IMG/VR virus record: IMGVR_UViG_3300045738_001212
Span: 64,001-128,000 of that record
From: a virus
Strand: one strand, 5' to 3'
DNA: 64,000 nucleotides
In this document: in pieces, positions 12,161-18,822 of the stretch
How positions within the stretch are numbered: position 1 is the stretch's first letter
How the letters are laid out: every line of letters starts with the position of its first letter
The notes under the pieces: generated by a model
The model's input: only the letters and a program-made list of their open reading frames with translations
Databases searched by the model: none
What the model was told of the DNA's origin: nothing
Translations under genes and position numbers: made by a program

Positions 12161-12242
12161 TGTCGTAATCCTCTGTATTTAGAATCAATAAATTTGCAGT
12201 ATATTGATAGCTACTCCAGTGGTGTCGCATGTCGTAATCCTC
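12161..12242 (-). CRISPR. mini-array D: 2 copies of the 13-nt repeat
   Basis: TGTCGTAATCCTC at 12161 and 12230 (+ strand), intergenic. Confidence 0.7.
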
Positions 12243-12486: not shown

Positions 12487-12579
12487 AAAATTTAAGCGCG
12501 AGAGACAGAGCAGAAAGGTATTAACGACCCCGCCTCTCGCAAGTGTAGTTCCGCGTGACACTTCCCTACACTAAATTAA

Positions 12580-12745
12580 TGGGTGAGAGGATTCTCATTT
12601 ACCTCTATCGTTTCGGAGTCACAGCTTGAGTTTCAGTGAGAAACCCTACTTTGAACCAGCCCTTGTAAGCCCCCAGAGACGGTAATCTCCTGCAAACAAG
12701 CCCTGTACCTTAACTGCCGCGACAGCAGTTTATTCGGTCACACCC
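12580..12745 (-). ncRNA. structured ncRNA candidate with tRNA-like ends
   Basis: intergenic; 5' GGGTG pairs with 3' CACCC-A; T-arm-like AGAGG..AATCCTCT hairpin; internal hairpins. Confidence 0.6.
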
Positions 12746-12774
12746 TTCGCTGGCGATCAACCAGCAAAATTATT

Positions 12775-13124: not shown

Positions 13125-13171
13125 TGTCGTAATCCTCTATAAATCGGTTAAGGGGTATTGTTGTAATCCTT
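13125..13171 (-). CRISPR. mini-array C: 2 repeats, 21-nt spacer
   Basis: TGTCGTAATCCTC at 13125 and TGTTGTAATCCTT at 13159, intergenic. Confidence 0.75.
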
Positions 13172-13662
13172 CAATTAACTCGCCAACTTGACCCTGCCAA
13201 GCCTTGATCCTCGTAATCGCTCTCTGATAAATACTGCTGAACTTCCTCATCGGAAGCGAAAAGCATATTCTTCTCATCAATGTAAAAAATACTTTTGTGG
13301 TAAGCCATCTTGCGAATTACGCCTCCATGAAAGCCTACTCCGCTATCTTCCTTACCGTGAACGCAGGTTATTTTAACTACGTTAGCTGCGTCACTCATAT
13401 ATTTGGCGCATAAGCCCAGCCCTTTCACTTTATAAATCCTGCCTCTGACGGGCTCATGGACGCTTTCGAACGCGCTCTTGATTTCTTCAATATCCTTATC
13501 AACACCATCATCCAGCCAATCGTCCTCATCATCTCCGTACTTCCAAGCTCCTTCAACCCCCTTGGTTCCTTCGTGGCCTACTGGACAGGAATGCTCCTTG
13601 GGCTGCTCTTCCGGCTTGTCCTCGTAAAAAACTTCAATTCCTAAAAGATGAGACTTTTTCAT
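13171..13662 (-). CDS. hypothetical acidic protein
   Basis: ORF translationally coupled to the ECF sigma gene. Confidence 0.55.
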   Translation of the reverse strand: MKKSHLLGIEVFYEDKPEEQPKEHSCPVGHEGTKGVEGAWKYGDDEDDWLDDGVDKDIEEIKSAFESVHEPVRGRIYKVKGLGLCAKYMSDAANVVKITCVHGKEDSGVGFHGGVIRKMAYHKSIFYIDEKNMLFASDEEVQQYLSESDYEDQGLAGSSWRVN

Positions 13663-14303
13663 AACAGATTTCTATTTTTTATTATCTTCCTTGCTCTTCG
13701 TCTAGCGTAAAATACCCTGCTCATAATCGTTCCTATCGAGCACTTCATTATTTTAGCAGCTTCGGCATAAGATTTTTCTTCTTCTATCACTAGCTCAATA
13801 ACCCTTTTTTGTTCGGGGTTCAGGCTCCCTTTTATCTGCGCCAAAACCTTCTTAAAGTGCTCAAAGCTTTCTTTCTCTTCAAGTCGGTTGCTGGGGCTTT
13901 CATCGTTAAGTAAGAGTATACCAGAACCTTGTAAGAAGTCAAGAGGATTTTTATCATTTTCTAAACAAAAATCTGCACAAAAATCTGAATAGGAAATCTC
14001 CTTAGATTTACGTCTTTTGTCCTGCCTGTAGAAATCATAGAAAGAATTGCGCCCAACCCTGAAAAACCACGTAGCAAAGGCACTTTTGAACTTAAAGGTC
14101 TTTATCCTCCTCCAAGATTTTACGCATGTAAGCTGCAAGATGTCTTTCGCGTCGGCTTCAGATACCCCCATTTTGAACAAAGAAGAGCGCACTAGGGCAC
14201 TATGACGCCCAAGAAGAACCTCGAATGCCTCCTTGCTACCTCTTTGACTCTTCTTTACTAAAGCTTCGTCTTTGAGGTTGGAAAGTTGAACTTTTTTGCT
14301 CAA
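13659..14303 (-). CDS. ECF (RpoE-like) sigma factor
   Basis: AFEVL, DILQ, F.TWFFRV..N, SYAEAAKIMKCSIGTIMSRVFYAR. Confidence 0.92.
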   Translation of the reverse strand: MSKKVQLSNLKDEALVKKSQRGSKEAFEVLLGRHSALVRSSLFKMGVSEADAKDILQLTCVKSWRRIKTFKFKSAFATWFFRVGRNSFYDFYRQDKRRKSKEISYSDFCADFCLENDKNPLDFLQGSGILLLNDESPSNRLEEKESFEHFKKVLAQIKGSLNPEQKRVIELVIEEEKSYAEAAKIMKCSIGTIMSRVFYARRRARKIIKNRNLL

Positions 14304-14324
14304 TTTTTCTTAAGCTACGGCGAA

Positions 14325-14556
14325 TGTTGTAATCCTCTATACCGATTGGAAGTACTATGTTGTGATCCTCTCAAATACTGGAACAACTCAAATGTTCTAA
14401 TCCTCTGTGCTTCTTTCATTCGGTGGTGTCGTAATCCTCACGCTTATCAAACGAGATGTCGTAATCCCCTTACTTGATACTAGGCTGTGCATAGTTCATC
14501 CCATGTTCTAATCCTCATCCTAATCCTAATCGATTTCGTGGTGTGTCGCAACCCTA
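14325..14556 (-). CRISPR. array B: 7 degenerate 13-nt repeats directly 3' of the tmRNA
   Basis: repeats at 14325, 14358, 14393, 14427, 14457, 14504, 14544 with unique 17-34-nt spacers. Confidence 0.85.
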
Positions 14557-14561
14557 AAAAA

Positions 14562-15020
14562 TGGTGGAGGCGGCGGGAATCGAACCCGCGTCTTTGGAGC
14601 CATCGGCTCAAATATACTACAAGCTTAATCAGTGCCATGTTCCTCGTATATAGCAGGTCACTGATTAAACCAACCGGGCCGCTCAAAGAGCGACTGGGAC
14701 TAACGTAAAACGTTAGACGCCTACACGAGTTTGAAGTCACATTTTATACTAGCGTTACAACCGCCCTAGTTTTTTGCTCGCTATCGACGCCCTAGCTCCT
14801 TAACGAGCATCCAGAGTAGGACGGGGCAGAACTTAAGCTGCCAGCGTGGCCTCTTCGGCCCAACCGAAACGAGCGAGAATCTCGTCTGCTTCAGCCAGAG
14901 AAGGAGCCATGTCAATATTACTATTGGCATATATGTTTTTAATGGAAGTTTTAAGAGGCCAACCATCATCCTCTGCTTGCAATCTGGCGTAAGATTCCAA
15001 ATCGAATCCAGTACGCCCCC
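14562..15020 (-). ncRNA. ssrA: tmRNA
   Basis: 5' GGGGGCGTACTGGATTCGA, 3' GGGTTCGATTCCCGCCGCCTCCACCA with G3-U pair; tag ORF 14833-14928 ANSN...ATLAA. Confidence 0.95.
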
Positions 15021-15534
15021 ACAAATATTACACTATAATTCACACCGATGGATTAATTGTTTCGCCTGTTTTGGGCTTTTTTTATTTCTTTTACTCCGTT
15101 TTTGGCAAATTCCTGACAGTGCTTTGCAAAAAAACCGTCCATCCCACATTTTTCCGCCCCTAAATATGAGTATAAGACTATAGCTAGGTTATTTTGCCCA
15201 GCTATCTGGCATTCGTCCGCCATGTCTTCAAGCACCGTCGCCAAAGTCTCTTCTCTGTTCTTCTTCCTCATTTAATTATTTTTAAAAAGATTTTTATCCT
15301 TCAACTCCGCTTTAAAGTTCCGTATCCCTTCCCATCTATAAACAGTGATCGGTATGGTAACGGGCGTCAACAATACATACCATTTTACTGTAAAAAACAC
15401 AAGATACAAAAGGTTACCCAATCCAAATAGCCAAGGATTTGATAACCAGCCCCAATCGTACTGAAACTGCTGCCATAAGAAGACCGAATAGGCGTCTAAT
15501 ACTCCTGAAAGATTTTCTGGATTCATGTCGTTTG

Positions 15535-15897
15535 TTATTTGATTTTTTTTGCGTGTCCCGCTTTTACCAAGAATTCGTTTACGGATTTGCCGTGGTATTT
15601 TCTCGTCCTTATGAAATTTTTAGTTAGTTGAACCTCGCCCAAGCACCTTCCGTATTTTCCGACACCAAGGGAAATCAGGGAAATTTCATTGTCACTGTTC
15701 TCAAGTATCTCCTTGAGCTTGGCCTTGGCTGCGAGCCCTTTCTTTTTCTCCACCTTGTCTCTCGTCCTGCTTTCGTAGGCGTCTATACCCGCTAACCTAA
15801 TGCGCTTCTTAACCCAAGTCTCAAAACCAAGGTCAATCATAGCGTCAATAGTGTCTCCGTCAACTACTTTAACTACTTTAGCTTTGTAGCGATACAT
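15535..15897 (-). CDS. thermonuclease (SNase-like)
   Basis: VVDGDTID, IRLAGIDAYE, GKYGR.L. Confidence 0.9.
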   Translation of the reverse strand: MYRYKAKVVKVVDGDTIDAMIDLGFETWVKKRIRLAGIDAYESRTRDKVEKKKGLAAKAKLKEILENSDNEISLISLGVGKYGRCLGEVQLTKNFIRTRKYHGKSVNEFLVKAGHAKKIK

Positions 15898-15902
15898 CTT
15901 AG

Positions 15903-16094
15903 CTATTCCCCAGCCCACTCTTCTTGTATTACGTGGTCTATTAAGCCCTCTATCCAGTCATTAAACGTATCTTGATCGAAGTCAGTCTCCCCCGTTTCCG
16001 CCCTGTACATGTCGAGAAACTCTTCATCCACCTCCATGAGGAGTTCTCTCTTGTTGCCCTTCACTTCTAGTTCTCTTATTACTTTTATTTTCAT
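15903..16094 (-). CDS. small acidic hypothetical protein
   Basis: AGGAG RBS, ORF tiled. Confidence 0.5.
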   Translation of the reverse strand: MKIKVIRELEVKGNKRELLMEVDEEFLDMYRAETGETDFDQDTFNDWIEGLIDHVIQEEWAGE

Positions 16095-16263
16095 TAATAG
16101 CTCCTATTTTAGCCAGAAGTTCGTCTATCAAATCAAGCTGAGACATTGCGTAGACGAATCTCGTTCTGCTTAGATTGCTACCATGAGGGCTATATTTGTG
16201 CAACTCTTTTGTTCGTAGTTTTTTCCTTTTTTCAAGGATTTCTATAATCTTGTGTTTATCCAT
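16024..16263 (-). CDS. hypothetical protein immediately downstream of array A
   Basis: start moved to MDKHK at 16263 because the longer ORF runs into the array. Confidence 0.5.
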   Translation of the reverse strand: MDKHKIIEILEKRKKLRTKELHKYSPHGSNLSRTRFVYAMSQLDLIDELLAKIGAINENKSNKRTRSEGQQERTPHGGG

Positions 16264-16272
16264 ATACTCGTA

Positions 16273-16894
16273 TGTCGTAATCCTCTTAATATCGTCGGGA
16301 CGAAGCATGTCGCAATCCTCTTGTGCAGTCCAACCATATTTGTGTTCTAATCCTCTTAAAATCAGACTATGCGTACCCTGCGTGTTCTAATCCTCTTAAA
16401 ATATACAGGAGCAATCATGTTGCAATCCTCACTCTTAAAAGTTCACTACGGCGTGCTGTGTTGTAATCCTCTTTAAATCGCAAGCTGCTCATGTGTTATA
16501 ATCCTCTTGGTCCAAAGTATGACTGATGTTGTAATCCTCTTATACTTAAATTCGGTTACATGAGGTGCGTGTTGTAATCCTCGCTGGTTTTGTTGGTAAT
16601 GTTTTAATCCTCTTATACTTAAAAAACGCGCACAGCTTGAAATGTTTTAATCCTCTCAAATTTTACCACGATACTCCATGTTGTAATCCTCTCATGCTAA
16701 AATTACTTCTTCTGTTGTCGTAATCCTCTTTAACAGCCGTCGCAATGTTTTAATCCTCATACTTAAACTGTGCAGATTGACTCCCTGTGTTGTAATCCTC
16801 TTATACTTAAATTAGGATAAATCCGAATTATGTTTTAATCCTCTTACTTAAATTGTCAAATTCAGTCATCAGTAGGGTAAGTGTTTCAATCCTC
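16273..16894 (-). CRISPR. array A: 17 degenerate 13-nt repeats (minus-strand consensus GAGGATTACAACA) with unique spacers
   Basis: repeats start (+ strand) at 16273, 16308, 16343, 16383, 16418, 16459, 16494, 16527, 16570, 16600, 16643, 16679, 16716, 16746, 16788, 16831, 16882; period 30-51 nt; the first copy reads GAGGATTGAAAC. Confidence 0.9.
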
Positions 16895-17137
16895 TTATGC
16901 TTGTTGATTCCTTATTTGCCTTATGGCTCTACGATGCATCCTCATGTGCTGGGGGTGAGCTTCGCACTCGCCATCAATTAATTCCATATCACATATCTCG
17001 CATTTAGGCTCGTTTAAGTCAGTCGAATGGTGTGTTTCACGGTAATGTTGTAATCCTAAATCTTCTGCTGTCGAAGGAAACTTGCAGTTAGCCCTTTCGA
17101 GTTCAAGAATAGTTATGTTTCTTTCTTCTTCAGTCAT
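16895..17137 (-). CDS. 80-aa protein with CxxC-x8-CxxH putative Zn finger, between nuclease and array
   Basis: start overlaps the nuclease stop (ATGACTGA); its TAA abuts repeat 1 of array A. Confidence 0.6.
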   Translation of the reverse strand: MTEEERNITILELERANCKFPSTAEDLGLQHYRETHHSTDLNEPKCEICDMELIDGECEAHPQHMRMHRRAIRQIRNQQA

Positions 17138-18608: not shown

Positions 18609-18621
18609 AATTATAATCCTT

Positions 18622-18788
18622 ATTAAGTTTGGGGGTGGGAGGGAGGATTATTTCACTCCCACCCCCGAGGATTTTGTTGCCCCGAAAGCGACCCTTATGT
18701 AGACGAGCTATATAAGAAATCTTAATCTCTCGTATCTGACAACCGTAACTTCCCGTCCAACCGACGGTAGAGTTCGTATCAGCGAACT
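18622..18788 (-). ncRNA. tracr/scout-like structured RNA (5' leader of the nuclease gene)
   Basis: several hairpins plus anti-repeat segments AATCCTC (18667-18673), TAATCCTC (18643-18650) and GTTGT (18739-18743). Confidence 0.6.
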
Positions 18789-18794
18789 ATGAAG

Positions 18795-18822
18795 AGTATA
18801 CCTGAAACTGTTTTGAAGTCAA
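18795..18822 (-). promoter_or_regulatory. sigma70-type promoter for leader RNA, nuclease and array A
   Basis: TTGACT-16-TATACT. Confidence 0.75.

What the first reader, a model, noticed from the sequence alone, without database searches (positions are those of the whole stretch)
14325..14562. Guide array placed directly behind the tmRNA 3' end
Seven repeats begin about 5 nt after the tmRNA CCA on the same strand, with no terminator between, and run up to the ECF sigma gene. Inference: the array uses the tmRNA promoter, and host tRNA-type 3' processing could release the pre-guide RNA. This would be a natural version of tRNA-gRNA multiplexing.
Basis: partly seen in the sequence, partly recalled or inferred. 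Interest (0 to 1): 0.75.

Follow-up and report, generated by a model that had tools for sequence, protein, structure and literature searches.

The report
Mini guide array behind phage tmRNA
A marine phage carries a seven-unit array of very short repeats squeezed between its own tmRNA gene and a sigma-factor gene; it is probably transcribed together with the tmRNA, but the contact with the tmRNA looks like a side effect of a variable gene slot being empty rather than a purpose-built tRNA-guide design.

Summary
A full-length tmRNA lies on the minus strand (15020..14562). It is followed by a T6 run and seven co-oriented units: a 13-nt core GAGGATTACAACA plus 17-34 nt of unique sequence. They run up to an ECF-type sigma gene, with no predicted terminator or promoter between.

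- **What the array is.** It belongs to about 45 same-strand units in this 158-kb phage. They go with a domesticated TnpB-like nuclease and a conserved ~170-nt sRNA whose invariant unpaired AAUCCUC complements the core.
- **Comparison with relatives.** The last unit is the conserved sigma leader, and the first unit is conserved too. One close relative also has tmRNA followed directly by an array (3 units). Another has a radical-SAM gene between the tmRNA and a 7-unit array. Three further lineages have a methyltransferase gene and a single unit. The array therefore belongs to the sigma leader and variable slot, not to the tmRNA.
- **Transcription.** Read-through from the tmRNA is likely, because ORFs or arrays start 3-26 nt after CCA in all six lineages. 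It is unproven: no RNA data could be obtained.
- **The tRNA-gRNA analogy.** It is weak. There is one tRNA-like element upstream and none between units.

The scan had already noted this system on this genome, and other phage TnpB guide arrays on other DNA.

The parts
14562..15020 (-). Phage-encoded one-piece tmRNA; the tag reading frame 14928..14833 ends in LAA then a stop
   Evidence: Rfam RF00023, 123.9 bits, full length. Tag translated. Homologous tmRNAs in relatives score 133-138 bits.
15032..15037 (-). Candidate -10 box (TATAGT) of the tmRNA promoter, 11 nt upstream of the mature 5' end
   Evidence: It aligns with a conserved TATGAT that is preceded by TTGCAA-N17 in relatives L016 and L021. 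In this phage the -35 is weak. This is inference only.
14556..14561 (-). T6 run directly after the CCA. It is a possible RNase E-type entry site or a weak pause, not a canonical terminator.
   Evidence: Sequence. The terminator scan found nothing here. T4-T6 or A/T-rich tracts follow the CCA in all relatives.
14517..14555 (-). Unit 1: degenerate core AGGGTTGCGACAC (14543-14555) plus a variable part beginning ACCACGAAATCGAT
   Evidence: The unit is conserved in L066 (directly after the tmRNA) and in L065 (after a radical-SAM gene). Its predicted duplex with the sRNA is weak, -5.7 kcal/mol.
14338..14516 (-). Units 2-6: cores at 14504-14516, 14457-14469, 14427-14439, 14393-14405 and 14358-14370, with unique 17-34-nt spacers
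   Evidence: This stretch replaces the methyltransferase gene of relatives and keeps no remnant of it. Unit 6 and probably unit 4 have counterparts in L065, in a different order. L066 has one different middle unit.
14304..14337 (-). Unit 7: core GAGGATTACAACA (14325-14337) plus the conserved sigma leader TTCGCCGTAGCT...
   Evidence: The same core and leader precede the sigma gene in all relatives.
13659..14303 (-). ECF-type sigma factor gene (214 aa, TTG start)
   Evidence: Pfam Sigma70_r2, Sigma70_r4_2 and Sigma70_ECF. Homologues are 50-89% identical in related phage contigs.
17130..18608 (-). TnpB-like nuclease (492 aa) with RuvC and a zinc ribbon; presumed user of the units
   Evidence: Pfam HTH_OrfB_IS605, OrfB_IS605 and Cas12f1-like_TNB. 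Closest solved structures are ISDra2 TnpB 8h1j/8bf8 and LaTranC 9jfo. It forms a distinct clade, 58-78% identical, at the same syntenic place in relatives.
18619..18822 (-). Promoter (TTGACT-N16-TATACT, 18822..18795) and a conserved ~170-nt sRNA. The sRNA has an invariant unpaired AAAAUCCUC (anti-repeat) and a G+C-rich terminal hairpin.
   Evidence: Promoter scan. The alignment of 10 lineages and its consensus fold show 3 compensated pairs. Predicted duplexes with six array-B cores are -8.8 to -10.3 kcal/mol, against a mean of -3.2 for random 15-mers.
16273..16894 (-). Array A: 17-18 units of the same family, downstream of the nuclease operon

Best explanation
**What array B is.** It is one of about seven dispersed, co-oriented mini repeat-spacer arrays of this phage. 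Each unit is a 13-nt core (GAGGAUUACAACA) followed by a guide-sized stretch of about 17-21 nt.

**Where it sits.** It occupies a variable slot between a phage tmRNA gene and a conserved ECF-type sigma gene. In relatives this slot holds a methyltransferase gene, a radical-SAM gene or nothing. The first unit and the last unit (the sigma leader) are conserved. The middle units vary in number, order and sequence between relatives.

**How it is made (inferred).**
- The array has no promoter or terminator of its own. I infer that it is made as part of one primary transcript, tmRNA - array - sigma mRNA.
- That transcript would start at the tmRNA promoter and/or promoters further upstream, for example the one at 15863..15836.
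- Excision of the tmRNA would then set the 5' end of the array RNA as a by-product. This means RNase P at the 5' end, and an RNase E-type cut in the U-run followed by exonuclease trimming at the 3' end.

**What the units do (inferred).**
- Their GAGGAUU would pair with the invariant single-stranded AAUCCUC of the sRNA encoded in front of the TnpB-like nuclease.
- They would then serve that nuclease as short crRNA-like guides.

**Shown:** the anatomy, the conservation pattern, the complementarity and the absence of own signals.

**Inferred:** co-transcription, processing and guide function.

**On the contact with the tmRNA.** It is best read as a consequence of an empty cargo slot, not as a selected tRNA-guide module.
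For: - **Anatomy and statistics:**
- **No own signals:** no promoter or terminator between 14562 and 14304.
- **Six lineages compared**:
  - The next feature starts 3-26 nt after CCA in all of them.
  - Ours and L066 have tmRNA directly followed by an array (7 versus 3 units).
  - L065 has tmRNA, then a radical-SAM gene, then a 7-unit array sharing units 1, 6, 7 and probably 4.
  - The L025, L026 and L016 lineages have tmRNA, then a methyltransferase gene, then one unit.
- **Arrays are RNA genes:** the array at genome 42838-43187 has a TTGACT-N17-TATACT promoter placing the start at its first repeat, and a strong terminator behind it.
- **System parts:**
  - The TnpB-like nuclease is conserved in synteny.
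  - The sRNA has an invariant unpaired anti-repeat.
  - No Cas1, Y1 TnpA or Nop protein was found in the genome.
- **A short repeat can suffice:** in the Cas12 hacker structure the crRNA is a 10-nt repeat plus a 17-nt guide (bioRxiv 10.1101/2025.01.20.633832).
- **Precedent for a phage tmRNA in an operon** with a downstream gene: phage Melnitz (PMC9004378).
Against: - Co-transcription and processing are therefore untested.
- A T6 run follows the CCA and could end part of the transcripts.
- A weak promoter-like site lies inside the tmRNA 3' part (14638..14611, 9 of 12 matches).
- No spacer of array B has a convincing target in the phage, its relatives or IMG/VR.
- In relatives the same core mostly occurs singly, 16-21 nt upstream of start codons of ordinary genes. 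Several 'spacers' are conserved leaders. This fits a cis-regulatory role at least as well as a guide role.
- The anti-repeat pairing is only 7-9 bp.
- The first unit after the tmRNA is degenerate.
Confidence: 0.5

Rival explanations
1. The core is a cis-regulatory leader element, not a guide repeat. The sRNA, or a protein, binds GAGGAUU in the 5' leaders of a set of phage genes to control their translation or stability. Tandem arrays are multi-site leaders or sponge RNAs. On this reading, array B is simply an expanded 5' UTR of the sigma mRNA that tunes sigma expression.
For: - In relatives the core is mostly single, and it lies 16-21 nt (most often 18) before start codons of many genes, often right after the previous stop codon.
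- Leaders such as the sigma one are conserved across lineages.
- In all lineages at least one unit precedes the sigma gene.
- The core starts with a Shine-Dalgarno-like GAGGA.
- The nuclease gene's own ribosome-binding site is a look-alike, AAGGATTA-N5-ATG.
- No targets were found for the spacers.
Against: - The sRNA is tightly linked to a TnpB-like nuclease whose RuvC and zinc-ribbon motifs (GID, ED, CPECG, DRD) read intact and which is conserved in 10 or more lineages.
- The spacing between cores is never below 17 nt, and the units are guide-sized.
- Middle units turn over and shuffle like array spacers.
- A stand-alone array with its own promoter and terminator has no gene to regulate, although a sponge RNA would also look like that.
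Confidence: 0.25
2. Array B is transcribed independently of the tmRNA. The start could be a promoter inside the tmRNA 3' part, promoter-like A/T-rich boxes directly upstream of some cores, or a phage-sigma-specific promoter. The tmRNA transcript would end at the T-run.
For: - A weak sigma70-like site lies at 14638..14611.
- A T6 run follows the CCA.
- In other arrays many cores are preceded by conserved A/T-rich boxes: AATTTAAGTATAA, and a 24-nt GCAAATTTATTGAYTCYAAATAYA element. These could be promoters that start at the core, as type II-C repeats do in Neisseria (my own knowledge).
Against: - Array B lacks both conserved boxes.
- The internal site is weak, and it overlaps sequence conserved for tmRNA function.
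- In three relative lineages an ORF starts 12-15 nt after the CCA, which requires read-through or an internal promoter there too.
- No single-subunit RNA polymerase gene was found, but that search had no positive control.
Confidence: 0.15
3. Array B is non-functional debris. On this reading the tandem [core + leader] modules are remnants left by repeated gain and loss of small gene cassettes in a hyperplastic region, through recombination between cores.
For: - The slot is variable (methyltransferase, radical-SAM or empty).
- Unit order is shuffled between relatives.
- The first unit is degenerate, and there is a GATTAG slippage stretch at 14517-14531.
- Unit 2's 34-nt 'spacer' resembles the WD(D/E)LC-coding part of two small genes elsewhere in the genome.
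Against: - Cores keep 11-13 of 13 positions, and units keep guide-sized spacing.
- Units 1, 6 and 7 are conserved at 75-89% sigma identity.
- The same architecture recurs at about seven places, one of them with a dedicated promoter and terminator.
Confidence: 0.1

Closest known systems
TranC (transposon-CRISPR intermediates) and compact type V systems that use a tracrRNA (Cas12f, Cas12n, 'Cas12 hacker')
   Same: - The effector is TnpB-sized with a RuvC domain. The profile matches ISDra2 TnpB and LaTranC structures.
- A separate scaffold RNA carries an anti-repeat near its 3' end.
- The guide lies 3' of the repeat, and there is no Cas1/Cas2.
- In the Cas12 hacker structure only a 10-nt repeat plus a 17-nt guide make up the crRNA.
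   Different: - Repeats here are 13 nt (up to about 26 with an A/T-rich extension) and spacers about 17-21 nt. TranC arrays have 32-38-bp repeats (bioRxiv 10.64898/2026.03.27.714800).
- The arrays are dispersed over about 38 kb.
- Single units sit in mRNA leaders.
- One array abuts a tmRNA.
- No function has been tested.
Cas12r-CRISPR of Thermus Lalka phages (bioRxiv 10.64898/2026.04.20.719267)
   Same: A phage-encoded TnpB-like nuclease is followed by a degenerate CRISPR-like array, without an adaptation module.
   Different: Cas12r has 29-bp repeats and 31-33-nt spacers. It has a single array next to the gene, needs no tracrRNA, and its spacers match host integrative elements. Here the units are much shorter, a tracr-like sRNA is present, and no targets were found.
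Engineered polycistronic tRNA-gRNA (PTG) arrays
   Same: A tRNA-like, RNase P/3'-end-processed element lies directly upstream of guide-like units on one presumed transcript.
   Different: PTG places a tRNA between every guide, so that RNase P and RNase Z free each one (design as reviewed in PMC8526792, listed; details from my own knowledge). Here one tmRNA precedes the whole array and nothing tRNA-like separates the units. The contact is not conserved among relatives.
Phage-encoded tmRNA genes embedded in operons (OM43 phage Melnitz, pelagimyophages; PMC9004378)
   Same: A marine myophage-type genome carries its own ssrA behind an early-type promoter, with co-oriented genes directly downstream.
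   Different: Melnitz has a two-piece tmRNA with a glutamine riboswitch and a protein gene downstream. Here the tmRNA is one-piece and is followed by a repeat array.
TIGR-Tas arrays (PMC12045711)
   Same: Phage-borne tandem guide arrays with a period of about 36 nt that standard CRISPR finders miss.
   Different: TIGR units have two alternating 8-12-nt repeats, two 9-nt spacers and a Nop-domain Tas protein. Here there is one repeat, one spacer of about 17-21 nt, no Nop protein and a TnpB-like nuclease.

Membership tests
tmRNA (ssrA) | Full-length match to the tmRNA covariance model with a tRNA-like 3' end ...CCA | tested here: met
   RF00023, 123.9 bits, model positions 1-374, ends in CCTCCACCA at 14562.
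tmRNA (ssrA) | Internal tag reading frame ending in a hydrophobic degradation tail (…LAA) plus a stop | tested here: met
   The frame 14928..14833 ends in TLAA then a stop.
Canonical CRISPR array | Repeats of about 23-50 nt and spacers of about 26-50 nt with regular spacing | tested here: not met
   The core is 13 nt. In array B the distance between core starts is 30-47 nt, and the gap between cores 17-34 nt.
Canonical CRISPR array | Adaptation genes cas1/cas2 in the genome | tested here: not met
   No Cas1 (PF01867) in the 158-kb record, with a positive control in 7 genomes. Cas2 was not searched for.
Type V / TranC-like RNA-guided system | TnpB/Cas12-type RuvC effector next to guide-encoding DNA | tested here: met
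   Pfam OrfB_IS605 and Cas12f1-like_TNB. PDB profile hits to TnpB and LaTranC. Array A lies directly downstream.
Type V / TranC-like RNA-guided system | tracrRNA whose anti-repeat pairs with the repeat | tested here: inconclusive
   A conserved sRNA has an unpaired, invariant AAAAUCCUC complementary to GAGGAUU. The pairing is only 7-9 bp, and there is no covariation test because both sides are invariant.
Type V / TranC-like RNA-guided system | Spacers match foreign or host DNA next to a common PAM/TAM | tested here: inconclusive
   No match beyond chance level in the phage's own genome, its relatives or IMG/VR, and no shared flank. The guides are short and the databases limited.
IS200/IS605 TnpB-omegaRNA transposon | TnpA partner or mobile multi-copy element, with the omegaRNA overlapping the 3' end of tnpB | tested here: not met
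   No Y1 transposase. The gene is single-copy and syntenic in relatives. The conserved RNA lies 5' of the gene.
TIGR-Tas | Nop-domain Tas protein and dual-repeat units with two 9-nt spacers | tested here: not met
   No Nop domain. Units have a single repeat. Definition taken from PMC12045711.
Polycistronic tRNA-gRNA design (functional analogy) | A tRNA-like element flanks each guide, so that RNase P/Z release single guides | tested here: not met
   Only the tmRNA lies upstream. No tRNA or tRNA-like hit lies within 14304-14561.
Polycistronic tRNA-gRNA design (functional analogy) | Guides and the tRNA-like element lie on one transcript | not testable with these tools
The only evidence is the absence of signals and the layout in relatives.

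The most novel reading that the evidence does not exclude
The phage makes one precursor that holds a stable RNA (tmRNA), a guide array and the sigma mRNA. Maturation of the tmRNA by host RNase P and RNase E-type enzymes delivers the array RNA. The array units, like the single units embedded in other mRNA leaders, pair with a tracr-like sRNA and program a domesticated TnpB-like nuclease. This would be the shortest natural repeat-spacer guides known, and the first natural case of a tRNA-like gene serving as leader and processing module for a guide array.
Probability: 0.3. Interest if true: 0.7.

Novelty: new variant of a known kind. Interest (0 to 1): 0.5.

Why it matters
- **If the units are real guides.** This phage lineage would show how far a TnpB-derived system can be minimised: a 13-nt handle, a guide of about 17 nt, and a trans scaffold. 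It would also show that guide arrays can be scattered through operons, including behind a stable RNA gene whose maturation would trim the precursor at no extra cost. That bears on the origin of CRISPR arrays from transposon RNAs and on compact multiplex guide design.
- **If the units are leader elements.** The case would show that short tandem repeats next to TnpB-like genes can mimic guide arrays. It would also reveal an sRNA-controlled regulon that includes a phage sigma factor.
- **The narrower claim.** A tmRNA serving as a purpose-built driver of guides is not supported by the comparison with relatives.

Tried and rejected
- **Close relatives by single-protein scans of viral contigs.** Nothing found for sigma or for the nuclease.
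- **GenBank phages.** No DNA match for 13600-16300. The nuclease finds only distant TnpBs, about 29% identical.
- **DNA pattern 'CCA + gap + core' in IMG/VR.** No hit.
- **The sigma-leader 15-mer in IMG/VR.** 27 hits, of which only one (L060) is a true relative.
- **The sRNA pattern in IMG/VR.** Only two records.
- **Spacer targets.**
  - An all-against-all search of 16-mers after each core gave only orthologous leaders and chance-level hits.
  - The 18-mers of units 5 and 4 gave 8 and 1 IMG/VR hits, with no common flank. My own rough estimate is that this is within the number chance would give.
- **Methyltransferase remnant in array B.** None.
- **TIGR reading.** Rejected.
- **Prophage att-site relics of the tmRNA 3' end.** Rejected, because the core bears no likeness to the tmRNA 3' end.
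- **Single-subunit RNA polymerase promoter reading.** No such polymerase was found, but the control was uninformative.
That segment lies in a stem with compensatory changes, so I do not count it as pairing with the repeat.

Full report
**1. What is there**

The window is bases 64001-128000 of a 158-kb IMG/VR phage record, about 91% complete.

- **tmRNA.** On the minus strand, Rfam finds a full-length tmRNA at 15020..14562 (123.9 bits). ARAGORN misses it. Its tag frame ends in the usual ...LAA.
- **Array B.** Directly after the CCA come six T and then seven co-oriented copies of a 13-nt core with consensus GAGGATTACAACA.
  - The first copy is degenerate; the other six have 0-2 mismatches.
  - The copies are separated by 17-34 nt of unique sequence.
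  - The last copy lies 21 nt before the TTG start of an ECF-type sigma gene.
- **Chance.** With up to two mismatches the core occurs 35 times in the window against 2.67 expected. In total 34 of the 35 are on the minus strand.
- **Signals.** The consensus scans find no terminator and no good promoter on the minus strand between the CCA and the sigma start.

The first copy is degenerate. The last 'spacer' is the leader of the sigma gene.

**2. The family to which the array belongs**

The whole genome holds about 45-50 copies of the core on the gene-coding minus strand and only one doubtful 2-mismatch match on the other. They form clusters at genome positions 42.8-43.2, 44.4-44.8, 46.7, 76.2-77.2, 78.3-78.6 (array B) and 80.3-80.9 kb.

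- **Nuclease.** The largest cluster follows a 492-aa protein with the Pfam domains of TnpB/Cas12f. Its profile matches the structures of ISDra2 TnpB and LaTranC. It defines a distinct clade, 58-78% identical, then a drop to about 30% for ordinary TnpBs. The gene sits at the same syntenic place in related marine phage contigs.
- **Absent partners.** The genome has no Cas1, no Y1 TnpA and no Nop-domain protein.
- **sRNA.** In front of the nuclease gene lies a sigma70-type promoter (TTGACT-N16-TATACT) and an RNA of about 170 nt that is conserved in ten lineages.
  - It has three compensated base pairs.
  - It ends in a G+C-rich hairpin that is followed by a T-run in most relatives.
  - It has an invariant, predicted-unpaired AAAAUCCUC. 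This complements the near-invariant GAGGAUU of the cores.
  - Six cores of array B give predicted duplexes of -8.8 to -10.3 kcal/mol. Random 15-mers average -3.2, and 2% of them reach -9.
- **A stand-alone array.** The array at genome 42838-43187 has its own TTGACT-N17-TATACT promoter, which places the start at its first repeat. A strong terminator follows directly behind it. At least that array looks like a stand-alone RNA gene.

Together these points favour a tracr-dependent, TnpB-derived guide system with unusually short units. In the Cas12 hacker structure the crRNA is a 10-nt repeat plus a 17-nt guide.

**3. What the relatives say about the junction with the tmRNA**

I compared six lineages.

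| Lineage (loci) | What lies between the tmRNA and the sigma gene |
|---|---|
| This phage | T6, then 7 units |
| L066 (sigma 89% identical) | TTT, then 3 units |
| L065 (sigma 75% identical) | a radical-SAM/SPASM gene, then 7 units |
| L025 and L021-L023 | methyltransferase ORF starting 12 nt after CCA, then one unit |
| L026 | methyltransferase ORF starting 12 nt after CCA, then one unit |
| L015, L016, L018 | methyltransferase ORF starting 15 nt after CCA, then one unit |

- In L066 the first unit is homologous to ours and the last unit is the sigma leader.
- In L065 the first unit, one middle unit and the last unit are homologous to ours (units 1, 6 and 7). A further unit is probably related to our unit 4, in a different order.
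- In this phage the 217 nt that hold units 1-6 replace the methyltransferase gene and keep no remnant of it.

From this I conclude three things:
- The array is tied to the sigma leader and to a variable cargo slot, not to the tmRNA.
- Its middle units are gained, lost and shuffled as array spacers are.
- Direct contact with the tmRNA occurs only where the slot holds no gene.

**4. Transcription**

No lineage has a hairpin terminator after the CCA, and the next feature starts 3-26 nt downstream. For the methyltransferase ORFs there is no room for a promoter. They must be read from a transcript that crosses the tmRNA gene, or from a start inside it.

- The same argument holds for the sigma gene here. 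Array B has neither of the A/T-rich boxes that precede cores in other arrays, nor any sigma70-like site.
- Relatives have a conserved TTGCAA-N17-TATGAT in front of the tmRNA. This phage keeps the -10 box (TATAGT, 15032-15037) but has a poor -35. A stronger promoter-like site lies at 15863..15836.
- A phage tmRNA in an operon with a downstream gene has been described for phage Melnitz (PMC9004378).

I therefore rate co-transcription of tmRNA, array and sigma as likely, about two in three. Two caveats are the T6 run after the CCA and a weak promoter-like site inside the tmRNA (14638..14611).

**5. Processing**

In proteobacteria, CCA-encoding precursors of tRNA and tmRNA are cut downstream by RNase E and trimmed by exonucleases. 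This rests on established knowledge and was not tested here. A cut in the U-run would leave the array RNA with a monophosphate 5' end, six bases before unit 1.

That step only defines the outer 5' end. Nothing tRNA-like lies between the units, so single guides would need another route. One candidate is cuts in the A/U-rich linkers. The likeness to engineered tRNA-gRNA arrays is therefore shallow.

**6. What speaks against a guide role**

- In relatives the core is mostly single. It sits 16-21 nt (most often 18) before the start codons of ordinary genes, often right behind the previous stop codon. Those 'spacers' are conserved leaders.
- The core begins with a Shine-Dalgarno-like GAGGA, and the nuclease gene's own ribosome-binding site is a look-alike.
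- I found no targets for the spacers of array B.

A regulatory reading is therefore a serious rival. In it, the sRNA binds the leaders, and the arrays act as multi-site leaders or sponges. The two readings do not exclude each other.

**7. Verdict**

- The sequence facts are right.
- The inference of a shared transcript is reasonable but unproven.
- The claim of a natural tRNA-gRNA multiplexing device goes beyond the evidence. The contact is lineage-specific. Other arrays of the family have their own promoter or follow protein genes. Only one tRNA-like element is involved.
- The underlying system is the more remarkable thing. It consists of mini arrays, a tracr-like sRNA and a domesticated TnpB-like nuclease. 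Other notes on this genome already record it.
- The scan has also reported phage TnpB guide arrays on other DNA, including mini scaffolds beside tRNA-like and tmRNA genes in another phage. I did not check that report.

Noticed in passing
window 18619-18822 (-): A conserved ~170-nt sRNA with a strong sigma70-type promoter lies in front of the TnpB-like gene. It has an invariant unpaired AAAAUCCUC and a terminal G+C hairpin, which is followed by T5-T9 in most relatives but not in this phage.
   Followed up: partly
L067:1703-2224 (genome 42702-43223, minus strand): Another array of the same family (9-10 units) has its own TTGACT-N17-TATACT promoter, which places the start at the first repeat, and a strong hairpin+T6 terminator behind it. 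Syntenic arrays with different spacers occur in IMG/VR contigs L010 and L012.
   Followed up: partly
window 12161-12173, 13125-13137, 13159-13171, 14325-14337; L016, L021, L025: Single copies of the core sit 16-21 nt (most often 18) upstream of start codons of several ordinary genes, often directly after the previous stop codon. The 18-nt leaders are conserved between lineages. This is unexplained under a pure guide model.
   Followed up: partly
window 12175-12198 (-); L067 array; L010:629-652: A conserved 24-nt element, GCAAATTTATTGAYTCYAAATAYA, directly precedes some cores after longer gaps. It contains CTAAATA, which I recall as resembling late promoters of T4-like marine phages. Not tested.
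   Followed up: no
window 14470-14503 (-); genome 56778-56793 and 37432-37447: The long 'spacer' of unit 2 matches, with 1 and 2 mismatches over 16 nt, the WD(D/E)LC-coding part of two small ORFs elsewhere in the phage. It may be a gene remnant, or chance.
   Followed up: partly
between tmRNA and sigma in L016/L025/L026 (methyltransferase), L065:264-1016 (radical SAM/SPASM): The slot behind the phage tmRNA is a cargo hot spot. Different genes occupy it in different lineages, and each starts within 12-26 nt of the CCA, apparently without a Shine-Dalgarno sequence.
   Followed up: partly
window 16895-17137 (-): An 80-aa ORF overlaps the nuclease stop and contains a core-like TAGGATTACAACA in frame (coding LGLQ). 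Relatives have two such copies. It is unclear whether this is coding repetition or an old guide-RNA end.
   Followed up: no
window 12576-12766 (-): A manA RNA motif (RF01745, 57.3 bits) is conserved at the same place in relatives (60-64 bits).
   Followed up: no
window 14562-15020 (-): ARAGORN does not report this tmRNA, although Rfam scores it at 124 bits. Its tag is long (31 residues).
   Followed up: partly
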